A stretch of 32,000 bases of DNA from Aliivibrio fischeri ES114 (lineage in GTDB: Bacteria; Pseudomonadota; Gammaproteobacteria; Enterobacterales; Vibrionaceae). A model generated the notes under the pieces. The model did no database searches and was not told where the DNA came from. It saw only the letters and a list, made by a program, of their open reading frames with translations. The DNA lies in the NCBI RefSeq assembly GCF_000011805.1, contig NC_006841.2; one strand, given 5' to 3'. Position 1 is the first letter of the stretch; each line of letters opens with the position of its first letter. The position numbers and the translations under genes were made by a program. Shown one piece after another: positions 1,936-31,052 of the stretch.

Positions 1936-1990
1936 AAATGAATCATTCCTTTCCCTTTTGCTACATGAAAAAATCGTAATCATGATGTAA
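1936..1990. repeat. Left copy of a perfect 55-bp direct repeat (candidate attL / target duplication)
   Basis: AAATGAATCATTCCTTTCCCTTTTGCTACATGAAAAAATCGTAATCATGATGTAA is identical base-for-base to 9921-9975. The flanks diverge immediately on both sides. Confidence 0.95.
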
Positions 1991-2180: not shown

Positions 2181-2888
2181 CTAACTATTAGGCAATTCTT
2201 CTTTGAGTTTTTGTAACTTTTTGCATAAATCATCAATATAATCACTAAGAAATTTTGACATATGTTGAACTTCACTTTTCTCTGTAAGCAAATCGTTAGC
2301 AGAACGAAAGTTCATTTCTTCTTCGGCCCATGAGAGCAAAAAATCATATAATTCTTGTTCTTCAACTGTTAATACGCTAGGAGGTACTTGATTACCTCTA
2401 TATAACTTCAATGTAGTAAACTCAACAAAATGTAGAGCTCTATACAAGTCAACTATCATCGAAAATGTATCCGCAGCTAAGGATTCATACTTTCCTAACT
2501 TGTTTCTTTCCCATACGTTAGCCTCGGGAGATAGAATACTCAGTGATTCAATAATTTTCTTAAAACGAGCCAATGGATAAGCATTGTTAGTCATATTACG
2601 TCTATGCCCCCATAGCTTCAAAATCAACTCAACGGATTGTTGTTGATATTTTTCTTTTTCCTCTGGATTCTCTGCATGTTCTGCCCTTTCCATCACCTCA
2701 ACTAGGTAATGAGACATCCACTTACCTAGAGTGTCACAACTATCTGAAAAGCCTAGCTCAGTCGCTAGGTGATGTCCAAGTACCAACACATCCTTCAGTG
2801 GTAAGGATTTCTCCAGTTCTTCTGAGAAGATAGAGTCTTGCGTATCGTGCTTCTTTTTCGGACTTTTCGTTATACTCTGTAATTCCAT
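2181..2888 (-). CDS. Hypothetical, predicted all-helical 235-aa protein; downstream partner of the giant NTPase
   Basis: ORF in the same orientation, overlapping the 3' end of the 2,147-aa ORF by 131 nt. An in-frame stop lies 3 codons upstream of the ATG at 2888. An alternative non-overlapping start is Met58 (ATG at 2717). I recognise no motif. Confidence 0.6.
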   Translation of the reverse strand: MELQSITKSPKKKHDTQDSIFSEELEKSLPLKDVLVLGHHLATELGFSDSCDTLGKWMSHYLVEVMERAEHAENPEEKEKYQQQSVELILKLWGHRRNMTNNAYPLARFKKIIESLSILSPEANVWERNKLGKYESLAADTFSMIVDLYRALHFVEFTTLKLYRGNQVPPSVLTVEEQELYDFLLSWAEEEMNFRSANDLLTEKSEVQHMSKFLSDYIDDLCKKLQKLKEELPNS

Positions 2889-5800
2889 CTTTAGTTACTC
2901 TTCGTGTTATTTCGACTTCAAGGATTAGATCAAAGCCAACTTTATCTAGGTATTGCTTAAGGTGATGTAATGACACTTTCAGGCGATGTCCATTAGAGAT
3001 TACATCTTCACCAAAAATGTATTCTTTCCACAGGGAGTTACCTCTTGTATCTCCCCATGCTTCATAATGAAATGCTCTTGCTCCATTAGAGGAGTCAAGC
3101 CAACTAACGGGATAGCTATCTGAACGACACAATCCTAGTATTTCAACGACATTTTCAGACGGAGTCGCTTCTATTAGGCGGACATCATGATTAAACACAT
3201 CCTTTTCATCTAGACGAGCATCACCAGAGTGTTCGTTGAGCCAACCACGTAATAAAAATGGGTCATCATCTATCTCAAATTCATGTCCAGCAGGTGGTAG
3301 ACGATAATCCCAAGAATCACGGGAAGTTTGTAGTGCCCGAAGCAATGATAATCCTGTATCTGGGCTAACAAGGGAAGAAGATATTCTCACACTGGAGCGA
3401 TGATTACTGGTGCGAATATCATGATATGAATCCACAACCAGACTTTCATCTTCGGAAGTTAAACCAAGTTCCAACTCAAAATCATTGTCGGTTATTGCTG
3501 CTACCCAATCTTCTGCCTCGACGGTAGGAGGAAGATGAAAACGTGTTTCTAGTGGTGTTGGACAACGAAGATCACTTGACCAGTGCGGGGGTTGAGTTAA
3601 TCCGTTTTGTCTCAAAAATCCGTTTAGTGTTCCATAATCGTCATCATCGTATTTAGGCTCAGATAACGCTTTTTCTGCCATTAGAGAGCCGAGGCTACAC
3701 CACATGGCGTGCCATTCTAGGTAATAACTGTGTCGCTCTATCGTCGGCATTGAGCCGTGACTATGGCTGTATAGGCTATAGTTTGCTCTTTCAAACTTAT
3801 ATTTTCGTGGCTCATTTTCCCATGTTGATAAATCAGAACCACTATTCCAGCGATCCATGATCCAAGCTTCCGCCTCATCTAGGAACATTTCTTGGTCAAC
3901 ATCAGAGAAGCACCTTATCGCGCCTGGATACACATAACTGAGAGTATCTAGCGAATCAAAGCTAAATCTTCTCTCTTTATTACCTTTGTGAAATCCGCCT
4001 CGATAAACTCTACCTTTCGATTTTTTGGTAGCTAATTCCGAAGTATTGATAGCATCTAATGCTGTAATTTCCTGTTCATCAAAATCAATAAAACCATTTG
4101 AAAGAAGTTTCATCAAACAAGATTTAGCAAAATGGCGCATCAATACATGCGGGAAGTCTTGGTCGGTAGCAATGCTCAACAACCAGCGTGCGACAGGTGC
4201 AATGGCTTCCGGTACCTCAGATGCAATTCGATCAAATGTAACAATGAGCCAAAGACGCGCTGACAACCAATAGAAAGGCACACTATCTTCACGATAGCCG
4301 GGCATAGATTTTCGCTCATACAAAGCGGTTAACGCCACAATTGTCTTAAAATCTCCCATTCTAGCAGACGCTCTAATACTATGTGCCGCTCGCCACCTCA
4401 CTCTAGTATCTATGTCGCCTAGGAACGAGTAGAGTTGGCATGCTAATGCTGATTCAACTAAAGACTCCGACTCAATTTTATCCGTTGGAAGTTTTAACCG
4501 TGTGGTTAGTCGCTGAACATAACGAATTGTGACATCAGCAATCTGCTGCTCACTGCAATAATCAGTCAACAGCCTGACTAACGAATAGAGCTTGGTCAAG
4601 GGCAAAGATTCGGCATTTTTTTCCAGGCCATCTAGCAGTATGCTAACCGCTTCTTCTTTATTTAAGTTAAGGCTATGAATAATATCTTTCAGCATCCGCT
4701 TGTCGTAACCATAATTTTCATCATAAGAGAACTCGCCCAAATGATTAGCAATTAAGACTGGTAGGTTTTCCTCTTTCCAAGCAGATATAGAGTGAGATGA
4801 CCCTATCCATAGGTTAATGCAGTCAATTAACGTATTAGCCCATGTATAGCCAAGATCATCAATTACGTGTTCATCGGTCAAGAAATCCAGAAAGGTAATA
4901 CGATCTTTTGACTCCAACTGACTGATTAAAGATCTCAATATGTCATCGTTGGTGATATATAAATCTTCACCTCTAGCTTCATTTCGCTTAGCGCGAATTG
5001 AAATCATAAAACTGGAAGGTGATTCAAAGGAAACGTCTGCTAATTTTATACCTTCAAGGAACTCGCGATCCTTTAATTTCCTAGTTGCCGAATCAAGTAT
5101 GTCATTGCTATTTTTTGACTTAGTACTTTTTTTGGTATGTGATTTAAATTCAACTAATTGATTAAGTGCTGAATGCCAATACTCACTACTATCGCAATAT
5201 GGAACTAACGCATTTAACTCCTGACATATTTTAGAACTACCGCTTCTGTTGAATCTCAATAACTCAGCTTTTGCAATTTCCTCTACAACTTGACTTGCAT
5301 CTTGAACACTTGTAACTGAAGCTAGTTTAACCACAAGCTCCTCATGTAAATCATCACAGAAATTGAGCAAAGATGCGGCCTGCGCAGAACTTATAGTTCC
5401 TTCTGTAACCCCTGTCGACATCAATGCAGGAAGAGTATCGCCGGCTTGAACTAAATCACAATCTTCCCAATAACCGATAAGGCTGATTGCTTGCGGCATA
5501 TCCAATATAGCAACAGCAGAAATTGCATCATTCCAGGGAAAATTATCATAGCCATCAAGAAGAGTGCCGTACTCCGTTATTATCGCAGCTATTTGACTTG
5601 CTATCTTCCGCGAATCTGTGGACGAAAAGTGCTTTTTAGCGTTTTTAGATAACGCTGAAAAAAGAGCCATGTCATGCATAGCATCGACATCAACGTCATT
5701 AGCGATATCAACCGCTATTTTAAATACTTCTCTGGCTTCGTCCTTATCCACAAACAGTAATATTCTGGACAAATCCAAAAGAATGCTGATCTTTTCGTTT

Positions 5801-8800
5801 GCTGCTGTTTTTAGAGCTGTTACTTCAACTGAGCGATCGTAAATATCCTTAACAACTAACGACCTCAACTCTGGTATTTTTATTAGATTTGCAATAACTT
5901 TACGCTGACCAGAAGAAAACACAGATGGCCATTGTTTAAACGCTCCCTTAGTTAGGCTTAGCACTATATTCATATTGATATCAGGCACAACAGACAGCTT
6001 GGCTAATGATAAAGAAAGGTGACTACATATGGATTCAAAATAGTGCTCCCTAGACATCCTCCAGGAATTTGCAAACAAAGAACCCAGTGCAGACTTAACT
6101 TTCTCTTCAGCATTTTCCGGCAAGATATTGGACAGCAAAACGTCCGCTCTAACAGCATAAACAGACATTAGACCTGACAGGCTTTCCTTTATCTCTTTAT
6201 GCTTTTCCGATAGTTTTTGCTTCTTCCTATTTTTCTCGGCCTCATTAAGATCTTCAGGTATAGGTGAATCAATCCAATAGGACTCTATTGTTACGTTGAG
6301 ACCACGATGGCGCATTAACAAAGAGTAAGCTCTAAAAGCGACATCGTTTTTAAGAATATCGTGTGTGTAGATGTTATTGACTAACCGCCAATTATCAGGG
6401 CATAGATATTCAAGAATTGGCTCAACTGAGGATAAATTCATTCCATTGGCAGCCAAAATTTCACAGCCATTAAGTAACATTTCCGCGTAGCTATAACCGT
6501 CTGAGCCTTCTGAAGTGTACCTTTCTAGCTCTTTTAGATCGCAATATTTCAATATATCCTTGTTGCACAGTGACTTTTCAAGAGAGGAACAATCAATACG
6601 GTAGCCAACAAGCGCCAAAGGTATTTTGAACAATGATGACCAAGGTTCTGGAATACAACCACTATCCAAAAACTCTTGAATTGCCGCTACCTTGTCCGAT
6701 AACAACAGACGATCCAATAATCTGTTCGCGATTTTGTAATGAATACTTTTGGGTTGCCAAATACAAATGAACTTGTATGCAGCCTCGTAACCTTCCATAT
6801 CCAACACTGAATGAGCAACAGCAGTAATATCCGCAAGCTCTAATGGCCACATATTTATATGTTGGTACCGACGATCGCTTTGTTCGGATTTTTGTCGTTC
6901 AATATCTTCACTTCTCCGATTAATCCATTCACGAAGAATACGTTTCTTTTCGCGGGCAGCGATAAAATCCCTGTCGGCTGCATCACGGGCAATAATATGC
7001 GATAAGAACCTACCATGGCTTTCATATGTTTTTGACGAGTAAAGTATATTTCGGCCTACAGTATCAGACGCAAAATGGACGGATAAATCGGGGTTTTCAG
7101 CGATAATTTTATCTACTGCATCATCTGTTTTTATCGCCTCTGCGCCAACCAGTAAGGTAAATATTGCATCTGCTGGCTCGCCCGCTGAACGACACACTTT
7201 CATCGCGAGTTGTAACCGCTGACGTTGTACTTCTCGGCGAATTATTTGGTCTTTTATAGCTTTTGGTGCTTCATTTTTCTCTATGATTTTTATGATTTCT
7301 TGGCCTTGCCCAGCTGAAAATAGCGCTGAAGCCAAATGCATGGCAGAATATTCATCACTTTCATGGTTAGCTTTGAAGTGTGCTGCTGAACGCTTATAAG
7401 CTTCCAGCAGCTTTGGTCGAGCTTTTTCTCTGACAAAGAACTCAACATCTTCATCAAGAAATCCCACCTTGCCATCAAGGACTCGCATTCCTGGCAGATC
7501 AGAGACAATATCACTAACCCTTTCTATTGATATCCCTGCAACACTAGCTAAATGTTGCTTTGGAACTGGTGACGGTAGTGCTACTAACGATGAACAAACG
7601 AGAGATAGGACGTCAGAATTACCCTCCTTCAAAATTGCTTCTTCAAAGCGGGCTTCAAAGATTTGTTCCAACCCCTTTCCATTGGGTCTTAAAAATTCAA
7701 TCGCTTTGCCCACATCTGATTTTGCATAGTCGAATGCGTAACTTTGTACTCGTGGATTTCGATTAGATAAATTATGAAAATCCTCTACCCATGCTTTGTC
7801 TACACCGGGAAATTGATTTAATACATTGAGCTCTGTTTCTTCCAATGAGAAGTTAGAAATTTCTACTGAGTTGTATTTAGATGGAATTGATAAGGAATCT
7901 AAACGTCCAGTTCTTGCAGAGATCATTAATCTAACATTAGCTGGCAGATTGCCTATTTTAATCAATTCATGAACGAAACTGATTTCTTCTGGCTTACATT
8001 GGTTTGCACCCGTCACAGAATTATCCGCAGCATCAATAACGACGACCAACAATGCATTATCTTCTTGTGCCTCTAAAACCTTGCTTGCACTTTCGATTCT
8101 TAAAGAAAAAGCCTTAATAAGATCTACTGAAGTATCCTGACTAATCAACAAAGGTAATCGCAATCGAGCCGAAGTTTCATTAATTAATTGCAAGTAGGCA
8201 TCTTTCGATCTATGCCGATAGGCTTCACTATCCATATAAGTGCCAGCGCCATAACAGTCATATGTAATCATAACTGAACCCTCGGGCAATAGATTTTCAA
8301 CCTGTTTTAGTACGGTCGTTTTTCCACTACCGCCTTCGCCATGCAAGCATATAAATTGATCTCCATTGACCATAGCAGTTTGTATCGCAACGGCAGCATT
8401 TCTATTAACAGGATTTTTCACTGCTTTGAGCCTTGAGGGGCATGGGAATAGAGCACGAGGGTCAGACACATTCATCCATGTCAACACCGTCTCTCTAGTG
8501 ATATAACTTCCTGTGGCCTCCGGCAGCATCAGCTTATGAATACGGTCTTTTAAATCCAACACAAACCCTCGATCAGCACTCAATGTAAGAGCTAGAATCT
8601 CATTAATTGCACTTTCCTCCTGCTCAAATCGAGAACCAGCGCCACAGTCAGAAAAGTCGAAGAGTTTAATAAATTTCTTGAAATTGGCTTTGTTAAGACC
8701 ACTAGCAATTCTTAGCGTTTCATACTTTTTGTTACTAAAATCGGAAAGCGACTTTTGAAGGTCTATACCAATAGGGCGATTACTGACTAGCCTAATTGTT

Positions 8801-9201
8801 AGCGTACCAGCACCAATCAGTTCTGGCCTAGCTTTTAATATTGCAGTAAATGAATCAGCAAGCCCTTTTACAATGCTGTTATTTGAAGATTTCGATTTAG
8901 AACTTGTTAGCTCCGAAACAGTCCAATTTTTTTCAGGCGTTGATGCAGAGTACTTTAGCTGCTCAATGACAACCTTTTCAGCTTGCTCTATTGTATGACC
9001 ACCATAAAATAAACCACAATCAACAGAGTCCCATTCCGTTAACTCCTGAGAATTTTCATCATCAAGATTTACGCCTTCAACTGTAACGGCAACCAATGAT
9101 GTGTCAGGTTCGAGTAACTGTAATGCTAGACGAAGTGCCCACCACTCATGAAAATCATCGCCAGTGTTGGAGGCTCTGGCACCTAGGTATTCTGCTTTCA
9201 T
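2758..9201 (-). CDS. Giant (2,147 aa) STAND-type P-loop NTPase with a nuclease-like N-terminal domain, long helical/HEAT-like repeat region and an unrecognised C-terminal module; Avs-like candidate defence protein
   Basis: Uninterrupted 6.4-kb ORF. The N-terminus (GDDFHEWWALRLALQLL, then E42, D58/D61, E80-Q-L-K83) resembles DUF4297/Cap4-type PD-(D/E)xK domains. Walker A is GEGGSGKTT (nt 8314-8340, aa 288-296). Walker B is LLVVVIDAADN (nt 8020-8052). An LMISARTGR block follows. A HEAT-like repeat GDIDTRVRWRAAHSIRASARMGD lies at nt 4351-4419. The last ~430 aa are rich in W, H and D and contain no motif I recognise. Confidence 0.85.
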   Translation of the reverse strand: MKAEYLGARASNTGDDFHEWWALRLALQLLEPDTSLVAVTVEGVNLDDENSQELTEWDSVDCGLFYGGHTIEQAEKVVIEQLKYSASTPEKNWTVSELTSSKSKSSNNSIVKGLADSFTAILKARPELIGAGTLTIRLVSNRPIGIDLQKSLSDFSNKKYETLRIASGLNKANFKKFIKLFDFSDCGAGSRFEQEESAINEILALTLSADRGFVLDLKDRIHKLMLPEATGSYITRETVLTWMNVSDPRALFPCPSRLKAVKNPVNRNAAVAIQTAMVNGDQFICLHGEGGSGKTTVLKQVENLLPEGSVMITYDCYGAGTYMDSEAYRHRSKDAYLQLINETSARLRLPLLISQDTSVDLIKAFSLRIESASKVLEAQEDNALLVVVIDAADNSVTGANQCKPEEISFVHELIKIGNLPANVRLMISARTGRLDSLSIPSKYNSVEISNFSLEETELNVLNQFPGVDKAWVEDFHNLSNRNPRVQSYAFDYAKSDVGKAIEFLRPNGKGLEQIFEARFEEAILKEGNSDVLSLVCSSLVALPSPVPKQHLASVAGISIERVSDIVSDLPGMRVLDGKVGFLDEDVEFFVREKARPKLLEAYKRSAAHFKANHESDEYSAMHLASALFSAGQGQEIIKIIEKNEAPKAIKDQIIRREVQRQRLQLAMKVCRSAGEPADAIFTLLVGAEAIKTDDAVDKIIAENPDLSVHFASDTVGRNILYSSKTYESHGRFLSHIIARDAADRDFIAAREKKRILREWINRRSEDIERQKSEQSDRRYQHINMWPLELADITAVAHSVLDMEGYEAAYKFICIWQPKSIHYKIANRLLDRLLLSDKVAAIQEFLDSGCIPEPWSSLFKIPLALVGYRIDCSSLEKSLCNKDILKYCDLKELERYTSEGSDGYSYAEMLLNGCEILAANGMNLSSVEPILEYLCPDNWRLVNNIYTHDILKNDVAFRAYSLLMRHRGLNVTIESYWIDSPIPEDLNEAEKNRKKQKLSEKHKEIKESLSGLMSVYAVRADVLLSNILPENAEEKVKSALGSLFANSWRMSREHYFESICSHLSLSLAKLSVVPDINMNIVLSLTKGAFKQWPSVFSSGQRKVIANLIKIPELRSLVVKDIYDRSVEVTALKTAANEKISILLDLSRILLFVDKDEAREVFKIAVDIANDVDVDAMHDMALFSALSKNAKKHFSSTDSRKIASQIAAIITEYGTLLDGYDNFPWNDAISAVAILDMPQAISLIGYWEDCDLVQAGDTLPALMSTGVTEGTISSAQAASLLNFCDDLHEELVVKLASVTSVQDASQVVEEIAKAELLRFNRSGSSKICQELNALVPYCDSSEYWHSALNQLVEFKSHTKKSTKSKNSNDILDSATRKLKDREFLEGIKLADVSFESPSSFMISIRAKRNEARGEDLYITNDDILRSLISQLESKDRITFLDFLTDEHVIDDLGYTWANTLIDCINLWIGSSHSISAWKEENLPVLIANHLGEFSYDENYGYDKRMLKDIIHSLNLNKEEAVSILLDGLEKNAESLPLTKLYSLVRLLTDYCSEQQIADVTIRYVQRLTTRLKLPTDKIESESLVESALACQLYSFLGDIDTRVRWRAAHSIRASARMGDFKTIVALTALYERKSMPGYREDSVPFYWLSARLWLIVTFDRIASEVPEAIAPVARWLLSIATDQDFPHVLMRHFAKSCLMKLLSNGFIDFDEQEITALDAINTSELATKKSKGRVYRGGFHKGNKERRFSFDSLDTLSYVYPGAIRCFSDVDQEMFLDEAEAWIMDRWNSGSDLSTWENEPRKYKFERANYSLYSHSHGSMPTIERHSYYLEWHAMWCSLGSLMAEKALSEPKYDDDDYGTLNGFLRQNGLTQPPHWSSDLRCPTPLETRFHLPPTVEAEDWVAAITDNDFELELGLTSEDESLVVDSYHDIRTSNHRSSVRISSSLVSPDTGLSLLRALQTSRDSWDYRLPPAGHEFEIDDDPFLLRGWLNEHSGDARLDEKDVFNHDVRLIEATPSENVVEILGLCRSDSYPVSWLDSSNGARAFHYEAWGDTRGNSLWKEYIFGEDVISNGHRLKVSLHHLKQYLDKVGFDLILEVEITRRVTKDGITEYNEKSEKEARYARLYLLRRTGEILTTEGCVGTWTSPSD

Positions 9202-9920
9202 ATAATGATAATTTCTACAAATCTCTTTTGAGAGCTATGGTTCTATTGGATTGCTAGCTAATCAACAAGAATAATTCAACCAAGCACATAATGATTGATT
9301 AAAAAAATTAGAGCAAGCCGCAGCTACTTAAAATGTGACAAATCGTAACTCTTAAATACTTTTAAAACAAAAGCTTGTTTATTAAACAATTAAATCTAAA
9401 TGGATAAAGTTGTAAAGCTATTTCGCAAATCAGATCCTCATGCCTCTTACACAGTAATATACTACGACGGTGTGGTAAGAACCTTCATCGACACAATTTT
9501 ACTAACTAACAGATATCCATCTGCCGGTAATAATTCTTTACAAAGGCTAGTACACCACAATACGAACGTAAACATAGTCAAGTACACACGACATTTATGT
9601 CCCATTCCCTAAAATCATTTTAATGGATCATTGTATGAAATCATTCAACGAGGCCTTTACAAAAACGTTTCTACCTACTTAACACTCTGTACTCGATTTT
9701 CTATATAGAGAAGTAGCTCTATGACAAACTGCGAATAAGTCAAGTAAAGCACCATCAAAAATTTCTAATCTGGTAAATTTTAATATTTCTGAGTATTAGA
9801 ACTTCACAATAAGTATATATCTGCCATATTTTTTAAAATCATAAAATAACTTATTGATTTACAAATTTACTGCTTTCAACTAGATAGCTGTATTCAATCA
9901 TCACTACTCTCCAATATGGG

Positions 9921-9975
9921 AAATGAATCATTCCTTTCCCTTTTGCTACATGAAAAAATCGTAATCATGATGTAA
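9921..9975. repeat. Right copy of the perfect 55-bp direct repeat (candidate attR)
   Basis: Identical to 1936-1990. Preceded by GGG (AAA at the left copy) and followed by CTCACTA (TAGGATT at the left copy). Confidence 0.95.
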
Positions 9976-10207: not shown

Positions 10208-12298
10208 TTGAAAATAGCTTTAAATCTTAATTTTGTTAGTAGTGCGCTATCAGGGTTAACCTCTGTGTTTAAACGTAAGAATTCGCAGTCTTCATCACGC
10301 TCTTACATTTATGATTTATCCGCAATTGCATTACTTCTTTTACCTCTAACGTTATCGAACGCAACCGCTGTTCTACTCGGGCATTTATTTAACTTTTTTG
10401 AATTTAAAGAACTTTCAAGCCTCCTTTTTCATTTATCGAATTTATTAATTAACATCTACCCACTCTCTTTTTGTGTCATTGCAGGGTATTACTTATCGCA
10501 CAAAACGACCTTTAGTAGCGCAACGTTTATCATCTACGCTTTAGCTCTGTTTTATCTGCTTTCAATAGAGAACGGTAGTTTATCTACGCCTTTCTATTTT
10601 CCTAATAACCCACTACTTGCTCTCTTAAGTGCTCTGATCACATTCATGTATTGCACTCGCTTTAATCTACAGCAACTAGAACCACAGGCTTTGGATTTTT
10701 CTTCTCGTTTGTTTAAGCACGTCTTCCACTTTTTTACTTTTATCAGCGCCGCCTTTTTATTGTCTAAATTGATGATGAAAGTCATTAATTACATGACGGC
10801 ATTAATCGGCAACATGAGTGCTGACCCTTTAACCTTTACTGGTGGGCTAATCTACCAAACCATTCTTGGGTTATTAGGCGCGATTGGCATTAATGGCCAC
10901 AACATGTTATTTGCCGTTAAACAGACCATCTATTCTGAAACTCAACAGAATATGGCGGATTGGGCAGCAGGAGAAGCAACGTTAAATATCATAAACCAAG
11001 GATTTTATGATGCGTTTATGTCAATGGGTGGCTCAGGGAACTCCATCAGTTTATTACTTTGTATTCTTCTATTTTCAAAAGAAAAAAATCATATTATGTT
11101 GGCTCTCGCAGCTTTCCCATTGGTAATGTTTAATATCAATGAGGTTTTGCTGTTTGGCTTACCAATCATCTTTAATCCATTACTGATCGTCCCATTTGTT
11201 GCGTTACCATTAATCAGTTTTTTAATTACTTATTTAGCTATTTTTTCAGGGGCAATATCTCCAGTCGTTAATATCGTTAACTGGATGACTCCACCATTAT
11301 TTAGTGGTTATGTTGCTATGGGAGAAAGCATAGAAGGCTCAATATTACAGCTTGTTATTATCATTGTAGGCATTTTTGTATATCGTCCTTTTTATCTTGC
11401 ATTTGCAGGGAAATACGCTCTCAATCACCCTGCGGTACTGAGTAATACGAATATAGAACAGTCGATTTTTAAAAGCCTATTAGATAACGTTAGAAGCTCA
11501 GCAGCGACGAGCTTAAAGCATTCTTCAACCCAGCAACGCTTATCGCGAATGCTGCACGAAGATGGCTTTGTAATGCATTATCAATTACTTCAATCTGTTG
11601 TTGAGAAAGACGTTATCTCTTTTGAGGCATTATTGCGCTATCAAGATCGTGAAGGCAATTTATGCCCGCCTACCTTTATTAGCGATTTCCAACTGCTTAA
11701 TATGATGCCAACACTGGATAAATTGGTTATTGATAAAGTCTTAACTGATATGCAGAAAATGGATCTCAACGAAGATCGACGTGTTGCTATCAATATTTCT
11801 GTCGCTTCCATTGAAGAACATGGTTTTGCAGAACACGTAATCGATCGTCTAAAGTTCTTTTCAATTCCACCACATTGGCTAGAAATTGAGATAACAGAAG
11901 AAGCTATTTTAAGTGATAACCATAATCTGCTAAGTACATTAGAGATCTTAAAGTCCCATGGAATTAAAATCGCTATGGATGATTTTGGAACCGGTTATGC
12001 TTCGTTCCCACATCTACTAAAATACCCATTTGATAAAATTAAGTTAGACCGCTCTTTGTTATTAGATGCTTCTACAACTAAAGGTAAACAGTTATACCAA
12101 TTAATCGCTCAAATGGGTGATGTAGCAAATTGTGAAGTGGTAGCAGAAGGTGTTGAAACTGAAGATGAATTTAAATTTGTTGCCGAGTGTGGTGTTGATA
12201 AAGTACAAGGCTTTTTGATTGCGCGACCACAACCGCTTTCTGAAGCGCTAAAATTAATAAAGCGCAACGATCAGATTGATACCAATCGTAATAAATAA
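10208..12298 (+). CDS. Membrane c-di-GMP phosphodiesterase: N-terminal PTS EIIC (lactose/cellobiose family)-like polytopic domain fused to a C-terminal EAL domain
   Basis: The N-terminal ~400 aa carry ChbC/CelB-type EIIC signatures: LLPLTL, AIGINGHN, GGSGNSISLLLCILLFSKEK, FNINEVLLFGLPIIFNPLLIVPFV. The C-terminal domain has an intact EAL motif set: EALLRY, INIS, EIEITE, DDFGTGYAS, KLDRS, EGVETEDE, QGFLIARP. The start is TTG at 10208 and there is no upstream in-frame ATG. An in-frame GTG at 10265 is an alternative start. Confidence 0.85.
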   Translation: MKIALNLNFVSSALSGLTSVFKRKNSQSSSRSYIYDLSAIALLLLPLTLSNATAVLLGHLFNFFEFKELSSLLFHLSNLLINIYPLSFCVIAGYYLSHKTTFSSATFIIYALALFYLLSIENGSLSTPFYFPNNPLLALLSALITFMYCTRFNLQQLEPQALDFSSRLFKHVFHFFTFISAAFLLSKLMMKVINYMTALIGNMSADPLTFTGGLIYQTILGLLGAIGINGHNMLFAVKQTIYSETQQNMADWAAGEATLNIINQGFYDAFMSMGGSGNSISLLLCILLFSKEKNHIMLALAAFPLVMFNINEVLLFGLPIIFNPLLIVPFVALPLISFLITYLAIFSGAISPVVNIVNWMTPPLFSGYVAMGESIEGSILQLVIIIVGIFVYRPFYLAFAGKYALNHPAVLSNTNIEQSIFKSLLDNVRSSAATSLKHSSTQQRLSRMLHEDGFVMHYQLLQSVVEKDVISFEALLRYQDREGNLCPPTFISDFQLLNMMPTLDKLVIDKVLTDMQKMDLNEDRRVAINISVASIEEHGFAEHVIDRLKFFSIPPHWLEIEITEEAILSDNHNLLSTLEILKSHGIKIAMDDFGTGYASFPHLLKYPFDKIKLDRSLLLDASTTKGKQLYQLIAQMGDVANCEVVAEGVETEDEFKFVAECGVDKVQGFLIARPQPLSEALKLIKRNDQIDTNRNK

Positions 12299-21098: not shown

Positions 21099-23390
21099 TT
21101 ATTCAACATTTCCAACAATCAGATACACAGAATCTAAACCATTTTCTGCTCGTCCATAAGACAGAATAATCGGCCCAATAGGCGTGTCTATTCCTCCAAA
21201 CAATGAACCAGAGAAAATAAGCGGTGCGGAGCTAATGTCTGTTGATTTCATTGACCATAAACCACCGTATTCTGCTGAAGCCCCCAAATAAACCGCTGTT
21301 TTAAACATGCCTAAATCATTCTCAAACCAACGGTATCGATAAGTTAAGCGACCATAAATTTTATTTGCACCAATCAAGCTATTTCGTGGCAAGCCTGATA
21401 AGTGATTAAACCCGCCAAGCTCAATCGGATTAACTGGAACCAAGTAATCATCACTGTTCGTTATGCCATATTCCGCACTACTAATGAAAGTGTGTCTTGC
21501 AATGCTTCTGGCAAATAGCGCTTCTGCTGTAAATTCATCAATGTATTGTTCTGAATGATCAGAGCCTTCTACATCACGGCTATTTACCTTATCGAACGCA
21601 TATAGGTAACGTGCATTTATTAACGAACCATGCGTTGGCAATGAAATACTGTCTAAACTATCAAAATTGTATTCGAGCGTTGCACCTAAGCGTTCATATT
21701 CCGTTCTTCCATACGCTGAAAGTCCGGTTAATTCATGGCTTCCTCTTGCATATAAGATCCCTGTTTTTAACTGCTGATCTTTTGTTGCTTCTACACCAAA
21801 CAAAGCATCGACGGTAAAATCTCGAAGATTAACAGGATAAAAGCTCATGCTGCTGTTTGGCTCTTTATCTTCTAAACTGCTTGTTGAAATTGAGCGTTTT
21901 TTATCGCTATACATCATGTTTGATTGCACAAAGAAATGATGATTCAGATAAAAAGGATAATGGATGGTCGCATCAAATATCTTATCTGTACCTAATTCAA
22001 CATTTGTACGTAATTCAGCACCATAATCGTTTAAATCGGTAAAATTAATTGAAGCACCAAGACCATATTGACTGTGCGTATCAAAATCCTCTTCTAAGAA
22101 AAAACGAAAATTTAAGTAATTGGGCCCCCACTCTTTCTCTTTAGCGGTCACTTTCAATACATTTTCATTGTTATCTTCTTCAACTAAATAAGTGATGGTT
22201 TCAAAACGATTAGTTGCATATAGAGCGTGAATTTTATCTTCAATATAATCACTGCTAAGCAATGTTCCTTGCTCAAACTGAATAAAACGCTCTAGTTTGT
22301 CGCTCTCATAATGACTTCGATTTTCAACTTCCACTTTATCAATGATTGCACCTTGAGCTAAACGAACGTTAGCTGATTGCTGCTTTATCTTGTTTTGGTA
22401 TTGAGCATATTCATTTGGAGCAACCGCTAAAGATTGCAGACGTGATTTCAGCGTCATTACAGTATCGTAACCCTCTTGATACGCTCTTGGCATGCTTGAG
22501 AAATCCGTCGTTTCAATATCACCAACACGAGGCTGCAATAAAATATCTTTATCTGTTAAAAATTCCGCTTGCTCTTGGGTACTGCGCTTAACCATAAAAT
22601 TAGTTAATTGAGATGCTACATCAAATAACGAGCCTATCTGCTCTTTAGTCATATAATTTGAGCTAATATCCACCGCGATGACAATATCCGCCCCCATCTC
22701 TTTTGCCAGTTCAACAGGCATATTATTGGTTACGCCACCATCGATAAGCAGCTTATCCTCAAACTCATAAGGTGGTAAGGCGCCGGGTACCGACATGCTT
22801 GCCATCATGGCATCAACTAAAAGACCATGGTCAATAACCACTTCTTCCATTGAAACAATATCAGTCGCAACTGAACGGTAGCGAATAGGGAAATCATCAA
22901 ACGATGCAACGGACACGGGATTACCAGATGTTTCACGTAAAATCTTAAGCATATTCTGTCCTTGAATCGCTGACTTTGGTGATTTTACTCCCTCTTTTCT
23001 GATTCCTAGCGATGGATTTATTGCAAATCTGTCTTCGTACTTTTTATCTCGACTATTTTTCTCTTCTCTGCCAACCTCATCTTGATAGCCACTGTACCAA
23101 TCTACGGTATGCAAATACGCTTCAATCTCAGAGGCCGATTTCCCTGTTGCATAAAGCCCACCGACATACGCCCCCATACTGGTTCCTGTAATAATATCTA
23201 TGGGTATATTTAACTCTTCAAGCGCTTTTAATACGCCAATGTGCGCCGCTCCTTTTGCACCACCACCAGCAAGTACCAAAGCAATTTTAGGGCGAGATGG
23301 TTCTTTTATTGGCTCTGCATATAAATACGGCGTAAAAAGAAATGTAGCTAAAAAAACAAACCATAAGTTCAAGCGAAAAACATGACGCAT
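21099..23390 (-). CDS. Patatin-like phospholipase fused to POTRA plus an Omp85-type beta-barrel (PlpD-like, type Vd secretion architecture)
   Basis: Signal peptide MRHVFRLNLWFVFLATFLFTPYLYA. Patatin motifs are present: GGGAKGAAHIGV, GTSMGA (GxSxG) and DGGVTNN. A POTRA-like segment and a long beta-rich C-terminus follow. The ORF track starts at 23417, but Met10 (23390) gives a canonical signal peptide. Confidence 0.85.
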   Translation of the reverse strand: MRHVFRLNLWFVFLATFLFTPYLYAEPIKEPSRPKIALVLAGGGAKGAAHIGVLKALEELNIPIDIITGTSMGAYVGGLYATGKSASEIEAYLHTVDWYSGYQDEVGREEKNSRDKKYEDRFAINPSLGIRKEGVKSPKSAIQGQNMLKILRETSGNPVSVASFDDFPIRYRSVATDIVSMEEVVIDHGLLVDAMMASMSVPGALPPYEFEDKLLIDGGVTNNMPVELAKEMGADIVIAVDISSNYMTKEQIGSLFDVASQLTNFMVKRSTQEQAEFLTDKDILLQPRVGDIETTDFSSMPRAYQEGYDTVMTLKSRLQSLAVAPNEYAQYQNKIKQQSANVRLAQGAIIDKVEVENRSHYESDKLERFIQFEQGTLLSSDYIEDKIHALYATNRFETITYLVEEDNNENVLKVTAKEKEWGPNYLNFRFFLEEDFDTHSQYGLGASINFTDLNDYGAELRTNVELGTDKIFDATIHYPFYLNHHFFVQSNMMYSDKKRSISTSSLEDKEPNSSMSFYPVNLRDFTVDALFGVEATKDQQLKTGILYARGSHELTGLSAYGRTEYERLGATLEYNFDSLDSISLPTHGSLINARYLYAFDKVNSRDVEGSDHSEQYIDEFTAEALFARSIARHTFISSAEYGITNSDDYLVPVNPIELGGFNHLSGLPRNSLIGANKIYGRLTYRYRWFENDLGMFKTAVYLGASAEYGGLWSMKSTDISSAPLIFSGSLFGGIDTPIGPIILSYGRAENGLDSVYLIVGNVE

Positions 23391-24119
23391 AATCACCATC
23401 CAGATAAGAATAATCATTAATTTTCATAAGAATATCAGGTTTAAAAAAGCAGAATTTGATCGGGGTAACGAAGTGATTAAGAGCTAAATTTATTAATATA
23501 AAAAACCTCCATCACTCGGCCAAAAAGTTACCACAATGTTAAACCAGAAGCTTGCTATCGCTAACTTAAATTTACATTTAGAATTTATACGCCTCTTATT
23601 CAATCAAAATAAAACGACTAACAAATCATGTCCTCTTACGATTAACGATCAATTATGAAACATAAGTTTTCACACTAAATTCAAAATAAACACAGATTCA
23701 CATTTGACATTAAAAAATCACCTCTTTTAAAAAGTCAAAATAACAACGAAAAACTGACTTTTATGTCAAAAAAACAGACACCTAACACATTGCAGTCGCA
23801 ATTCCAAGAATTACTTTAGAAGCAAGATCACAGTTTAAAAAACTCCTGATATCCTTAAAAATTCTTCTGGTTAGAATGCTCGAAAATTCAATTCAGCTAT
23901 TAATTTGATATTAATAAATGAATTTTGCGTGGTTCGATTCGAGGTTTTTGCCTAATTATAGTGGTTTGGGAATTAACCTTTTCGTAACAGAGTGAGCCCT
24001 TATTAAACGGCTCATTCAATCATAGGCAAGGAAGCGAGTGATGATGAAATCTATCCATCGCACACCTTTATAATTAATAAATTTATCTAGATAAGATAAA
24101 TAAAAAAGAAGAAAAAGCA

Positions 24120-27714: not shown

Positions 27715-27789
<75 letters not shown>

Positions 27790-28045: not shown

Positions 28046-28537
28046 TTATTCGCAGTATGCGTATTGGTAATCACGAAAGAATAACTCTTTTACTATCTCC
28101 ATTGACATTGTTTTGCTAATTGCCAAGCGACTTAAAATAGTTAACGGCGGAAAACACAATGAATACCGATCATCATCTAAATGGTTGACCACACTTTTAT
28201 GCTGAAGGTATTCAAAATCACCACTTTCAGCAATCGCTTGTACGCCAGTATCAAGTGCATGGATCAGTCCATGTTTATCTGTTCCCCAAATGCCATTGGT
28301 TTCTCGCTCTTCTATTCGTTCACTTAACTCTTTTATATTGGCAATTAAGGGAGTAAAAGGAACGGGACGAATGTTATCTACACCATTATTCTTTCTATCA
28401 CTTCCAAGGGTTACAATTTTGGGGTTTGAGTGCCAGTTTTCAAATAAAGTTTTTCTTGTTGTTTCATTATATTACCCATAAAACTGCGTAGAAAATAAAT
28501 AAATCCCTTCAGCTAACACTGCTTTATTACTCATCAT
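28046..28537 (-). pseudogene. 164-codon ORF interrupted by a single in-frame TAA at codon 22 (nt 28474-28472); unknown function; translationally coupled to the upstream lipoprotein gene
   Basis: Hand translation: MMSNKAVLAEGIYLFSTQFYG*YNETTRKTLFENWHSNPKIVTLGSDRKNNGVDNIRPVPFTPLIANIKELSERIEERETNGIWGTDKHGLIHALDTGVQAIAESGDFEYLQHKSVVNHLDDDRYSLCFPPLTILSRLAISKTMSMEIVKELFFRDYQYAYCE*. The ATG (28537-28535) overlaps the TGA of the upstream gene (ATGA) and is preceded by AAGGAGGA. The 141 codons after the stop are open but contain no ATG, GTG or TTG start near their beginning. Confidence 0.5.
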
Positions 28538-29736
28538 TTATCCTCCTTAACAAATGCACCATTATTTGCAAAACCGTTGTATAACCAAGACAGTGTTGCG
28601 GAATGGCCTGAGCAGATTTGTCCCCAATGCAGAGTTTGAGAAAATAATTTTTTATCTTTTGTTAATTTATACTGTCTTGCACTGCCAGCAGAAGCTGAGC
28701 GAACATATTCGGCATTAAATCCTAATACATCAAAAAATCGGTATTGGCTTTTTTTCTTTCGGTCTTTTTTTTCTAATTTAACTTCTTTTGTTTCTGTATT
28801 AATAAAATAACGATATTGTGCCGACTCACCCCACGCATACTTTCCATCAGGGCTGATTGACCTGCTTTTCAAAAAATATTTTCTATCATACGAAAGTGAA
28901 ATGTTCTTAACAGCGAGTTTATCCTCTTCAGCTGTAGATAAACCTATTGAATAAAGTCGTTTGTTATTACTCTCGTTAAAAACAACAATCCCATAATCAG
29001 AGACCACATACCGCTTACCGCCGTATATCACCCCAACTTCTGAGAAATAAAAATCATCGTCCATTTGAGTGGTTTTGCCTGTAGCAAGTTCGTATTTCCA
29101 ATATATGGCTCTGTCTTCAAAATACAGATAGCTACTATCTTCCGCCCAGAGAAATTGAGAATGACCTAAATCTGTACCAAGTAATGTGGATTTCTGAGTT
29201 TGCACATCGAATACTACTTTATCAGTGCCACCGCTTGTTCTTGATGCATATGAATAAGCTAAATAACGGTTGTTGGGGGAACGGCGCATAATACGTACAT
29301 CACCACTAAAATCATCCGTCACTAATCGCAAATCGGTACCATCTGTTTTTATACTCCATACTTTATCGTAAGATTCGTAAATGGCTTTTTCACTAGCAGA
29401 AGCACTCACAAAATCCCCGTTATTCCACCTGAAATCCACTCTCGGTAAGTCGTAAGAATCCGCATTTGATAAATCTTCTCTTGGCCACTCTTTGGCGCTG
29501 TTCACCACAAAGCAGGGCTTCATTATTCCCGGTATCGTGCCATTGGCTTCTTTCATTAAAATGTAGTTATCTTTAGTGACATAAACACGGTTATCATCCC
29601 ACTCTTGCTCGTTAAGCAATTCGACATCAGTTTTTGGTGGTTCAACTACCGCATTTGGTGTTGAGGATTCGTCTTGGTTGCATCCGTATAGGAGTATCAC
29701 AGTGCATGCAATAAGGAATGTTTTATTTAAAGCCAT
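28534..29736 (-). CDS. Lipoprotein of unknown function, beta-propeller-like (TolB/PD40-type hints); paralog A
   Basis: Signal peptide with lipobox (ILLYG-C at Cys19). SPNNRYLAYS and SISPDGKYAWGE resemble PD40/TolB-type blade motifs. High protein identity, estimated by eye at roughly 75-80%, to the adjacent upstream gene. Confidence 0.8.
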   Translation of the reverse strand: MALNKTFLIACTVILLYGCNQDESSTPNAVVEPPKTDVELLNEQEWDDNRVYVTKDNYILMKEANGTIPGIMKPCFVVNSAKEWPREDLSNADSYDLPRVDFRWNNGDFVSASASEKAIYESYDKVWSIKTDGTDLRLVTDDFSGDVRIMRRSPNNRYLAYSYASRTSGGTDKVVFDVQTQKSTLLGTDLGHSQFLWAEDSSYLYFEDRAIYWKYELATGKTTQMDDDFYFSEVGVIYGGKRYVVSDYGIVVFNESNNKRLYSIGLSTAEEDKLAVKNISLSYDRKYFLKSRSISPDGKYAWGESAQYRYFINTETKEVKLEKKDRKKKSQYRFFDVLGFNAEYVRSASAGSARQYKLTKDKKLFSQTLHWGQICSGHSATLSWLYNGFANNGAFVKEDK

Positions 29737-30962
29737 TATTTACCCTCCTTGATAAATGCACCATTATTTGCAAAACCATTGTATAACCACGACAGTGTTG
29801 CTGAATGGCCTGAGCAGATTTGCCCCCAATGCTGAGTTTGAGAAAATAACTTTTTATCTTTTGTTAATTTATATTGCCTTGCACTGCCAGCAGAAGCTGA
29901 GCGAACATAATCGGCGTTAAGTCCTAATACATCAAAAAATCGGTATTGGCTTTTTTTCTTTCGGTCTTTTTTTTCTAATTTAACTTCTTTTGTTTCTGTA
30001 TTAATAAAATAACGATATTGTGCTGACTCACCCCACGCATACTTTCCATCAGGGCTGATTGAGCGACTTTTTAATTCATATTGTAATGAATGCTCTCTAG
30101 TGATAACTAAATAACCTTGTTCTTTTTTCTGCTCTTGTAATTCTTTTGGGTAGATGCTTACACCATACAAACGCTTATCACTCTTCTCATCATAGACACC
30201 AACACCAAAATCAGAGACCACATACCTCTTCCCACCGTATATCACCCCCACTTCTGAAAAATGGAAGTCATCGTTCATTTGGGTAGTTTTTCCTGTGGTA
30301 ATTTCGTATTTCCAATATTTGGCTCTGTCTTCAAAATACAAATAACTGCTGTCTTCCGCCCAGAGGAACTGAGAATGGCCCCTATCAGCACCCAAAACTA
30401 TCGACTCTTGGGTTTCTAAATCAAAAATAACTTTTTCAACGTTATTACTCCAAGCTAAGTAGCGATTATTAGGTGACCGACGCATCATTTTAACCGTTAC
30501 CGCTCTGTTATGTGCCCTTGGCGGAACAACATCTAAAAAATCAGTCACTAATCGTAAATCGGTGCCATCTGTTTTTATGCTCCAAATTTTGTCTCTCGCT
30601 TCATAAATCGCTTTCTCATCTGATGAGGCATTAGTAAATTCACCATTGTCCCATCTAAAATCCACTCTCGGTAAGTCGTATGAATCCGTATTTGATAAAT
30701 CTTCTCTTGGCCACTCTTTGGCGCTGTTCACCACAAAGCAGGGCTTCATTATTCCCGGTATAGTGCCATTGGCTTCTTTCATTAAGATGTAGTTATCTTT
30801 AGTGACATAAACTCGGTTATCATCCCACTCTTGCTTGTTAAGCAATTCGACGTCAGTTTTGGGTGGTTCAACTGCTGTACTTAACGTTGAGGGTTCGTCT
30901 TGGTTGCATCCGTTTAGGAAAATAAGCGCAGCTAATGCTGTCCATAGGTATTTTGAATTCAT
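29736..30962 (-). CDS. Lipoprotein of unknown function, beta-propeller-like; paralog B
   Basis: Signal peptide with lipobox (IFLNG-C). Its stop overlaps the start of paralog A (TAATG), with AAGGAGGG inside its last codons serving as the Shine-Dalgarno sequence for paralog A. Confidence 0.8.
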   Translation of the reverse strand: MNSKYLWTALAALIFLNGCNQDEPSTLSTAVEPPKTDVELLNKQEWDDNRVYVTKDNYILMKEANGTIPGIMKPCFVVNSAKEWPREDLSNTDSYDLPRVDFRWDNGEFTNASSDEKAIYEARDKIWSIKTDGTDLRLVTDFLDVVPPRAHNRAVTVKMMRRSPNNRYLAWSNNVEKVIFDLETQESIVLGADRGHSQFLWAEDSSYLYFEDRAKYWKYEITTGKTTQMNDDFHFSEVGVIYGGKRYVVSDFGVGVYDEKSDKRLYGVSIYPKELQEQKKEQGYLVITREHSLQYELKSRSISPDGKYAWGESAQYRYFINTETKEVKLEKKDRKKKSQYRFFDVLGLNADYVRSASAGSARQYKLTKDKKLFSQTQHWGQICSGHSATLSWLYNGFANNGAFIKEGK

Positions 30963-31052
30963 GGTATCCCTACACTAATTCACTGATTGCAATGTCTTGG
31001 TATAGAATGCTGGATTTATTAACCCAGCTCATTTAACAATAAGAACCAGTTT

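What the first reader, a model, noticed from the sequence alone, without database searches (positions are those of the whole stretch)
2181..9201. Candidate novel two-gene defence-type system: 2,147-aa nuclease-like/STAND/HEAT protein plus a 235-aa helical partner
The large ORF has the tripartite layout of antiviral STAND (Avs/NLR-like) proteins. First comes an N-terminal effector-like domain whose pattern (GDDFHEWWALRLALQLL, D58/D61, E80-Q-L-K83) resembles Cap4/DUF4297-type PD-(D/E)xK nucleases. A P-loop NTPase follows (Walker A GEGGSGKTT, Walker B VVVIDAADN, LMISARTGR). More than 1,200 aa of helical/HEAT-like repeats then lead to a terminal module with no recognisable motif. The gene is paired with a small unknown gene, sits in an insertion flanked by direct repeats, and is surrounded by housekeeping or metabolic genes. 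The combination of a partner gene and the unrecognised C-terminal module does not obviously match any named Avs type that I can assign from sequence alone.
Basis: partly seen in the sequence, partly recalled or inferred. Interest (0 to 1): 0.85.

Follow-up and report, generated by a model that had tools for sequence, protein, structure and literature searches.

The report
Divergent Avs3 anti-phage gene pair
The giant gene and its small partner are a distant but clear copy of the known Avs3 (AVAST type 3) bacterial anti-virus system, sitting in a recently acquired 8-kb insert in Aliivibrio fischeri ES114, so they are not a new kind of system.

Summary
A 2,147-aa ORF (2758-9201, minus strand) and an overlapping small ORF lie in a 7,985-bp insert bracketed by a perfect 55-nt direct repeat, between gcvP and sugar-transport/c-di-GMP genes. 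The novelty claim does not hold. PADLOC and NCBIfam match the pair end to end to Avs3a (E 8.6e-218 and 7.5e-243) and to Avs3b (E 5.5e-20 and 1.8e-22). It is a remote member, about 25% identical to canonical Avs3a. It falls below NCBI's equivalog cut-off and is publicly annotated only as "ATP-binding protein" (VF_A0705) and "hypothetical protein" (VF_A0704). The nuclease motif (D61, Q81-x-K83), Walker A/B and many sensor residues are invariant across the family. An Avs3b homolog follows Avs3a in 64 of 65 testable loci from many phyla, usually overlapping it by about 26-35 nt. The most likely mechanism, inferred from SeAvs3, is binding of the phage large terminase, ATP-dependent tetramerisation and non-specific dsDNA cleavage. 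Avs3b's role remains unknown: it is all-helical and has no fold match. The 7.2-kb module is 93-94% identical to Vibrio copies, while gcvP is only 75% identical, which indicates recent horizontal transfer.

The parts
2758..9201 (-). avs3a homolog (VF_A0705, 2,147 aa): Cap4-like nuclease, STAND NTPase and sensor
   Evidence: PADLOC Avs3a E 8.6e-218, aa 8-2133 against 7-2088 of 2090. NCBIfam NF041816 E 7.5e-243. PDB 8DGC SeAvs3 E 7.5e-141. Exact match to VF_A0705 / WP_011263536.1.
8452..9201 (-). N-terminal Cap4-like PD-(D/E)xK nuclease domain (about aa 1-250). Motifs: GDDFH at 14-18, D58, D61, Q81-x-K83.
   Evidence: Aligns to SeAvs3 residues 5-250. G14, D15, H18, D58, D61 and Q81 are invariant in 27 family members including canonical Avs3a. 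K83 is invariant except for one K-to-R change. Domain boundaries are approximate. Pfam DUF4297 itself was not hit.
7102..8424 (-). STAND NTPase module (about aa 260-700). Walker A G288-T296 (K294), Walker B 386-394 (D390, D393), R430.
   Evidence: Weak NACHT/AAA_22/AAA_16 hits at aa 280-457, all below Pfam gathering score. G293, K294, D390, D393 and R430 are invariant. Aligns to the SeAvs3 NTPase. The C-terminal boundary is approximate.
2761..7101 (-). Helical (TPR-like) sensor and C-terminal sensor module (about aa 701-2147)
   Evidence: aa 1138-2137 align to SeAvs3 1119-2083, E 2.9e-64. The end-to-end BLASTP to K. variicola Avs3a also spans the middle region. Invariant residues include R1602, W1603, H1607, F1643, R1658, H1685, W1874, D1877, W2034 and W2049.
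2181..2789 (-). avs3b homolog (VF_A0704, about 202 aa, all-helical, function unknown)
   Evidence: PADLOC Avs3b E 5.5e-20. NCBIfam NF041817 E 1.8e-22, model positions 1-88 of 211. 31% identity over 105 aa to PGAP-annotated Avs3b, E 3e-15. 100% identical to VF_A0704. AF2 model is seven helices, pLDDT 75.5.
2758..2789 (-). Overlap of the avs3a 3' end with the avs3b 5' end (+1 frame). A GAAGGA SD-like motif at 2791-2796 suggests translational coupling.
   Evidence: Sequence read. In 55 of 57 loci the conserved start of Avs3b lies 11-38 nt before the Avs3a stop, and 56 of 57 are in the same relative frame.
9202..9364 (-). Conserved 5' leader/promoter region that travels with the module
   Evidence: DNA homology to Vibrio and Providencia copies extends to window 9226-9380 and no further. 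Promoter function is inferred, not shown.
9365..9920 (.). AT-rich (about 31-33% GC) non-coding spacer inside the insert, of unknown origin
   Evidence: Composition. Only short ORFs are present. No Rfam family. No similarity to related loci, plasmids or phages.
1936..1990 (+). Left copy of the perfect 55-nt direct repeat bounding the insert. It starts 69 nt after the gcvP stop, just past the gcvP terminator hairpin (1895-1924).
9921..9975 (+). Right copy of the 55-nt direct repeat, 232 nt upstream of the PTS-EIIC/EAL gene
   Evidence: Logan short-read contigs from other A. fischeri samples break exactly inside this repeat.

Best explanation
This is a divergent member of the Avs3 (AVAST type 3) two-gene anti-phage system in Aliivibrio fischeri ES114 chromosome II: VF_A0705 is Avs3a and VF_A0704 is Avs3b. 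By homology with SeAvs3, Avs3a most likely rests as an inactive monomer. On infection its C-terminal sensor binds a conserved phage protein, most probably the large terminase subunit. ATP-bound STAND domains then tetramerise and bring the N-terminal Cap4-like nuclease domains together, and these degrade dsDNA indiscriminately, aborting the infection. Avs3b is translated from a start that overlaps the end of avs3a. It is a conserved, co-inherited accessory protein whose role is not known; I favour a regulatory or stabilising role towards Avs3a. The pair arrived by recent horizontal transfer as a compact 7.2-kb module now inside a 7,985-bp insert next to gcvP. Shown here: homology, architecture, motif conservation, partner conservation, and the transfer signature. 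Inferred: the ligand, oligomerisation, DNA cleavage, the defence phenotype, and any role for Avs3b.
For: Profile matches to Avs3a and Avs3b come from two independent libraries. There is full-length homology to the solved SeAvs3 and to a PGAP-named avs3a/avs3b pair with the same overlapping gene order. No other Avs type was hit in PADLOC. Catalytic and nucleotide-binding residues are invariant across 27 sequences of 24-88% identity, including canonical Avs3a, and so are about 25 sensor residues. Avs3b lies directly downstream in 64 of 65 testable loci from Proteobacteria, Chloroflexota, Acidobacteriota, Nitrospirota and other phyla, with a conserved overlap and frame. Pairwise identities of the two proteins are correlated, Spearman rho 0.77. 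The SeAvs3 mechanism is published: terminase binding, tetramerisation and dsDNA degradation, with a C-terminal sensor that binds the terminase ATPase (PMC13601566; PMC11564622; PMC13581612). Horizontal transfer is supported by 93-94% DNA identity to Vibrio copies over window 9364-2203 against 75% for the adjacent gcvP, and by >=90%-identical proteins in V. parahaemolyticus, V. alginolyticus, V. owensii and others.
Against: Identity to canonical Avs3a is only about 24-25%. The NCBIfam equivalog cut-offs are missed by a wide margin: 809 against 2800 bits for Avs3a and 80 against 200 bits for Avs3b. The ligand could therefore differ from that of SeAvs3. Avs3b matches the canonical model only over its first 88 or so positions. 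Pfam does not detect DUF4297, and its NACHT/AAA hits are below gathering score. No experiment on this locus was found in the searchable literature. The original AVAST papers (Gao 2020, 2022) were not readable here, so SeAvs3 terminase-contact residues could not be checked one by one.
Confidence: 0.82

Rival explanations
1. It has the Avs3 architecture but a different trigger. This clade's sensor has diverged enough to recognise a phage protein other than, or in addition to, the large terminase. The downstream steps (oligomerisation, nuclease activation) would be unchanged.
For: Only about 25% identity to canonical Avs3a. The region aa 825-1138 is too divergent for phmmer to align to SeAvs3. 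Published precedent exists for trigger diversification within a single Avs family, KpAvs2 (PMC11564622), and for many STAND families sensing different core phage proteins (PMC13581612).
Against: The C-terminal sensor aligns to SeAvs3 to within 10 residues of both C-termini. About 25 aromatic or charged sensor residues are invariant between this clade and canonical Avs3a. SeAvs3 recognises immutable terminase features across terminases with under 10% mutual identity (PMC13601566), which argues for a conserved ligand.
Confidence: 0.2
2. Avs3b is an obligate functional subunit, for example an inhibitor that prevents autoimmunity, an assembly factor or a second sensor. In that case the single-protein SeAvs3 mechanism is an incomplete description of how the locus works.
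For: Avs3b is present in 64 of 65 loci across phyla, with a conserved overlapping start in a fixed frame. The two proteins are co-inherited. Avs3b is a large stand-alone family, with 1,702 representatives at 50% clustering and none of the top 150 fused to another domain. Its N-terminal 90 or so residues are conserved, with invariant W24, W60, R63 and P72.
Against: The solved active complex 8DGC matched here only through SeAvs3 chains. The papers I could read describe it as SeAvs3 plus terminase, with no Avs3b mentioned. The Avs3b C-terminal half is poorly conserved. The model has only moderate confidence and no fold match that would suggest an activity.
Confidence: 0.35
3. The locus is a non-defence STAND/NLR-like ATPase or a decaying relic with no current function.
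For: The immediate neighbours in this genome are metabolic genes, not defence genes. The public annotation is generic.
Against: Both ORFs are intact and all catalytic motifs are preserved. Recent horizontal spread at 93-94% DNA identity is typical of defence cargo. Some related loci sit beside type IIG R-M/DrmMI-like genes, and one sits in a Tn7-like element.
Confidence: 0.04

Closest known systems
SeAvs3 (Salmonella enterica Avs3; PDB 8DGC) and the AVAST type 3 avs3a/avs3b pair (NCBIfam NF041816/NF041817; PADLOC PDLC02167/PDLC02168)
   Same: Length is similar (2,147 against 2,092 aa). The order is the same: Cap4-like nuclease, STAND NTPase, helical sensor, C-terminal sensor. The D...QxK and Walker motifs are the same. 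A small avs3b gene overlaps the 3' end of avs3a. Alignment runs end to end.
   Different: About 25% identity. The nuclease signature is GDDFHEW rather than GDQFHYLW. The loop before the catalytic Asp is 3 residues shorter; this loop falls in the SeAvs3 41-60 region described as regulatory in PMC13581612. The scores are below the NCBI equivalog cut-offs. The Avs3b C-terminal half is unrelated in sequence. The trigger and phenotype are untested.
Avs1, Avs2 and Avs4 (other antiviral STANDs that sense terminase or portal)
   Same: All share the tripartite effector-NTPase-sensor logic. Avs2 is reported to share a C-terminal terminase-binding sensor with Avs3, and Avs1 to be structurally similar to Avs3 (PMC13601566).
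   Different: No PADLOC profile for these types was hit by either protein. They are not defined by an Avs3b partner.
Cap4 (CBASS) and DUF4297 nucleases (HerA-DUF4297)
   Same: The N-terminal PD-(D/E)xK nuclease fold and the oligomerisation-dependent activation logic (PMC13581612; bioRxiv 10.1101/2024.10.24.620088).
   Different: There is no SAVED domain, no cyclase and no HerA. The domain is fused to a STAND NTPase. The Pfam DUF4297 model does not detect it.

Membership tests
Avs3 / AVAST type 3 | Full-length similarity of the large protein to Avs3a profiles | tested here: met
   PADLOC PDLC02167 E 8.6e-218, covering aa 8-2133 against 7-2088 of 2090. NCBIfam NF041816 E 7.5e-243, covering 9-2133 against 2-2081 of 2083.
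Avs3 / AVAST type 3 | Score above NCBI's curated 'equivalog' cut-off. This is a naming threshold, not a biological definition. | tested here: not met
   809 against 2800 bits for Avs3a, and 80 against 200 bits for Avs3b. The pair lies outside the narrow seed clade, which is why RefSeq calls it 'ATP-binding protein' or 'hypothetical'. I read this as 'divergent subclade', not as exclusion from the family.
Avs3 / AVAST type 3 | N-terminal Cap4-like nuclease with catalytic Asp and QxK | tested here: met
   Aligned to the SeAvs3 N-terminus. D61, Q81 and K83 are conserved across the family.
Avs3 / AVAST type 3 | STAND NTPase with Walker A and Walker B | tested here: met
   G293-K294 and D390/D393 are invariant. 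There are weak NACHT/AAA hits.
Avs3 / AVAST type 3 | C-terminal sensor homologous to the SeAvs3 terminase-binding sensor | tested here: met
   aa 1138-2137 against SeAvs3 1119-2083, E 2.9e-64, with invariant sensor residues shared with canonical Avs3a. This is sequence homology only; no structure was predicted for this region.
Avs3 / AVAST type 3 | Avs3b gene immediately downstream on the same strand | tested here: met
   Avs3b profile hits. E 3e-15 to annotated Avs3b. The same arrangement occurs in 64 of 65 related loci.
Avs3 / AVAST type 3 | Activation by the phage large terminase, tetramerisation, dsDNA degradation and phage defence | not testable with these tools
   Known for SeAvs3 only (PMC13601566, PMC11564622). 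No multimer prediction tool was available here.
Avs1 / Avs2 / Avs4 / Avs5 | Match to the corresponding PADLOC sensor/NTPase profiles | tested here: not met
   At E <= 1, only Avs3a and a 20-residue P-loop match to VakA were returned.
CBASS Cap4 effector | Nuclease fused to a SAVED domain and linked to a CD-NTase | tested here: not met
   No SAVED or cyclase hit appeared in Pfam, PADLOC or NCBIfam for this protein or its neighbours.
Tn7-like transposon cargo (for the insert) | tnsA/B/C genes and TGT...ACA ends with repeated TnsB sites | tested here: not met
   These features are present around the same module in Vibrio locus L092 but absent from the window. The window insert is bounded by a 55-nt direct repeat instead.

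The most novel reading that the evidence does not exclude
Avs3b, which accompanies Avs3a almost without exception, with a fixed-frame overlap, and is absent from descriptions of the solved SeAvs3-terminase complex, could be an essential regulator or co-sensor. This 25%-identical marine clade could also respond to a trigger other than the terminase. Either would mean the accepted single-protein Avs3 mechanism is incomplete.
Probability: 0.25. Interest if true: 0.55.

Novelty: new member of a known kind. Interest (0 to 1): 0.25.

Why it matters
The locus is not a new defence system, so the high first-stage score should come down. It still has practical value. It shows that a widespread Avs3 subclade, found in Vibrio, Aliivibrio, Shewanella, Aeromonas, Morganella, Providencia and many environmental phyla, is missed by NCBI's naming threshold and is annotated generically. 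It corrects the avs3b start: the RefSeq 178-aa calls cut off a conserved N-terminus. It documents that Avs3b pairing and overlap are near-universal, which raises the open question of what Avs3b does. It also places a characterised type of immune sensor in the squid-symbiont model strain ES114, where phage defence can be tested genetically.

Tried and rejected
- **Pfam.** Only sub-threshold NACHT/AAA hits on the large protein and noise on the small one.
- **Fused domains.** The HMM search of 1.84 billion representatives found 1,702 Avs3b relatives. All of the top 150 are small stand-alone proteins, so no fused domain gives a functional clue.
- **Insert mobility.** There is no integrase or transposase ORF inside the insert. 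No flanking direct repeats occur at seven related loci. No Tn7-type end motifs or tns remnants occur in the window.
- **Spacer 9365-9975.** No match in plasmids or phages and no Rfam family.
- **Empty-site search.** The repeat core was not found in metagenome contigs. Look-ups of identical ManA and EAL proteins returned only contigs that carry the insert or break inside the repeat. An unoccupied site was therefore not seen.
- **Defence-island test.** A PADLOC scan of 59 flanking ORFs from related loci hit 431 models, with type IIG R-M/DrmMI-like in 3 members and mad2 in 4. The output does not allow a proper enrichment statistic.
- **Literature.** Gao 2020 and 2022 are not held. There are no papers on VF_A0704 or VF_A0705.
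Full report
**Observation**

The window holds a 2,147-aa ORF at 2758-9201 (minus strand) and a small ORF on the same strand whose longest form is 2181-2888, 235 aa. A perfect 55-nt direct repeat lies at 1936-1990 and 9921-9975, a spacing of 7,985 nt. It brackets the two genes plus about 720 nt of AT-rich non-coding DNA.

To the left is the 3' end of gcvP with its terminator hairpin. To the right are a PTS-EIIC/EAL protein, an EamA transporter, an AraC regulator, fructose-type PTS genes and manA.

**Source organism**

The small protein is 100% identical to VF_A0704, and the large one is an exact match to VF_A0705 (WP_011263536.1, UniProt Q5DZM1). Both are from Aliivibrio fischeri ES114 chromosome II. 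They are annotated as "hypothetical protein" and "ATP-binding protein".

**What the genes are**

PADLOC matches the large protein end to end to Avs3a (E 8.6e-218, aa 8-2133 against model 7-2088 of 2090) and the small one to Avs3b (E 5.5e-20). No other Avs type is hit. NCBIfam gives the same answer. NF041816, "AVAST type 3 anti-phage nuclease/ATPase Avs3a", scores E 7.5e-243, and NF041817, Avs3b, scores E 1.8e-22.

Both NCBIfam scores are far below the strict equivalog cut-offs: 809 against 2800 bits and 80 against 200 bits. This explains the generic public names.

The large protein matches the solved SeAvs3 chain of PDB 8DGC (E 7.5e-141) in two stretches: 6-825 against 5-820, and 1138-2137 against 1119-2083. 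The "terminal module with no recognisable motif" is therefore the counterpart of the SeAvs3 C-terminal sensor.

A Klebsiella variicola plasmid carries a PGAP-named avs3a/avs3b pair with the same overlapping order. BLASTP to that Avs3a is end to end at 25% identity. Avs3b is 31% identical over its first 105 residues, E 3e-15. Pfam alone would not have resolved this, because it gives only sub-threshold NACHT/AAA hits and no DUF4297.

**Conservation**

I aligned 27 homologs spanning 24-88% identity, including the canonical Avs3a.

- Invariant nuclease residues: G14, D15, H18, D58, D61 and Q81. K83 is invariant apart from one K-to-R change.
- Invariant NTPase residues: G293, K294 (Walker A), D390, D393 (Walker B) and R430.
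- Invariant sensor residues (about 25): R1602, W1603, H1607, F1643, R1658, H1685, W1874, D1877, W2034, W2049 and others.

The protein therefore looks catalytically competent. The shared sensor residues argue for a ligand shared with SeAvs3.

**The partner gene**

A pattern scan of one genome per species returned 80 loci from many phyla. Of 65 loci with a full-length Avs3a and at least 650 nt of downstream sequence, 64 have an Avs3b homolog directly downstream on the same strand.

In 55 of 57 loci with an intact Avs3a ORF, the conserved start of Avs3b lies 11-38 nt before the Avs3a stop. In 56 of 57 it is in the same relative reading frame.

In the window the start is the GTG at 2789 or the TTG at 2786, preceded by GAAGGA, so the overlap is 29-32 nt. 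The residues just after that start (L4, G5, W24) are conserved across phyla. The 178-aa RefSeq calls that begin at M25 are therefore truncated.

Pairwise identities of Avs3a and Avs3b across 58 pairs correlate (Spearman rho 0.77), and Avs3b evolves somewhat faster. Only the first 90 or so residues of Avs3b are well conserved.

The best AF2 model is seven helices (pLDDT 75.5, pTM 0.55). It has no significant Foldseek match in PDB or BFVD. A full HMM search finds 1,702 relatives, and the top 150 are all stand-alone proteins of about 110-370 aa. The function of Avs3b remains open.

**Mechanism**

SeAvs3 tetramerises on binding the phage large terminase. This activates its Cap4-like nuclease to degrade dsDNA. 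It reads immutable terminase features such as active-site residues and bound ATP. Its C-terminal sensor binds the terminase ATPase domain (PMC13601566; PMC11564622; PMC13581612).

I infer the same chain of events for VF_A0705. The homology and motif conservation are shown here. The ligand, oligomerisation, DNA cleavage and defence phenotype are inferred.

For Avs3b I favour a regulatory or stabilising role, on the basis of coupled translation and strict co-inheritance. Nothing here demonstrates that role.

**Origin of the insert**

DNA similarity to Vibrio copies (loci L091 and L092) is 93-94%, but only over window 9364 to 2203. That span covers about 160 nt of leader plus the two genes. The adjacent gcvP is only 75% identical. 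Proteins at least 90% identical occur in V. parahaemolyticus, V. alginolyticus, V. owensii, V. antiquarius and V. vulnificus. This is recent horizontal transfer of a compact 7.2-kb module.

In L092 the same module also lies next to gcvP, inside what looks like a Tn7-like element. TGTGTCAGAG followed by two tandem ATTCTAATTTTAGACAAAG repeats begins 7 nt after the gcvP stop, and TnsA-like, TnsB-sized and TniB genes lie 9.5 kb away.

The window has none of these features. Its 55-nt repeat is not seen at seven related loci. I could not find an unoccupied site, so how the insert arrived in ES114 is unresolved.

**Verdict**

This is a new, divergent and under-annotated member of a known and mechanistically characterised family. 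It is not a novel system. The remaining open point is the role of Avs3b. Interest is low to moderate.

Noticed in passing
L092:1-3829 and L092:13300-13422 (Vibrio, Logan SRR30718032): The same avs3ab module sits beside gcvP in a Vibrio. It appears to be cargo of a Tn7-like element whose end (TGTGTCAGAG plus two tandem 20-nt repeats) starts 7 nt after the gcvP stop. TnsA-like, 753-aa and TniB genes lie nearby. This suggests that the gcvP 3' flank is an attachment site or hotspot.
   Followed up: partly
window 27715-27789 and 28534-31997: A tRNA-Gly(TCC) is followed by three co-directional minus-strand ORFs of 400, 408 and 314 aa. None has a hit in Pfam, PADLOC or NCBIfam. This may be another acquired gene cluster.
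   Followed up: partly
window 10208-12298: An unusual fusion protein of 696 aa: an N-terminal PTS EIIC membrane domain joined to a C-terminal EAL c-di-GMP phosphodiesterase domain.
   Followed up: no
window 21099-23417: A 772-aa patatin-like phospholipase. Only the first 60 or so residues of its patatin domain resemble CBASS/defence phospholipase effector models. It is probably not a defence gene.
   Followed up: partly
window 2717-2789: RefSeq versions of Avs3b (178 aa, for example WP_162200284.1) start at an internal Met and omit 24 residues that are conserved across phyla. The GenBank 202-aa call fits the family better.
   Followed up: yes
window 9921-9975; loci L082, L083, L094-L102: Short-read (Logan) contigs from many A. 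fischeri samples start exactly within the 55-nt repeat (window 9921 or 9946). This is expected if the repeat is two-copy in all of them. No sample with an empty site was seen.
   Followed up: yes
L008:363-454 and L008:5777-5868 (Arenicella sp. MAG): A 92-nt direct repeat (89% identical) brackets a 5.4-kb segment that ends 133 nt upstream of that genome's avs3a. This may be another small mobile insert beside an Avs3 locus.
   Followed up: no
L091:4596-5636: In another Vibrio-type locus the gene directly upstream of avs3a carries a SMEK_N (PF21941) domain. The module's neighbours differ in every genome examined.
   Followed up: no
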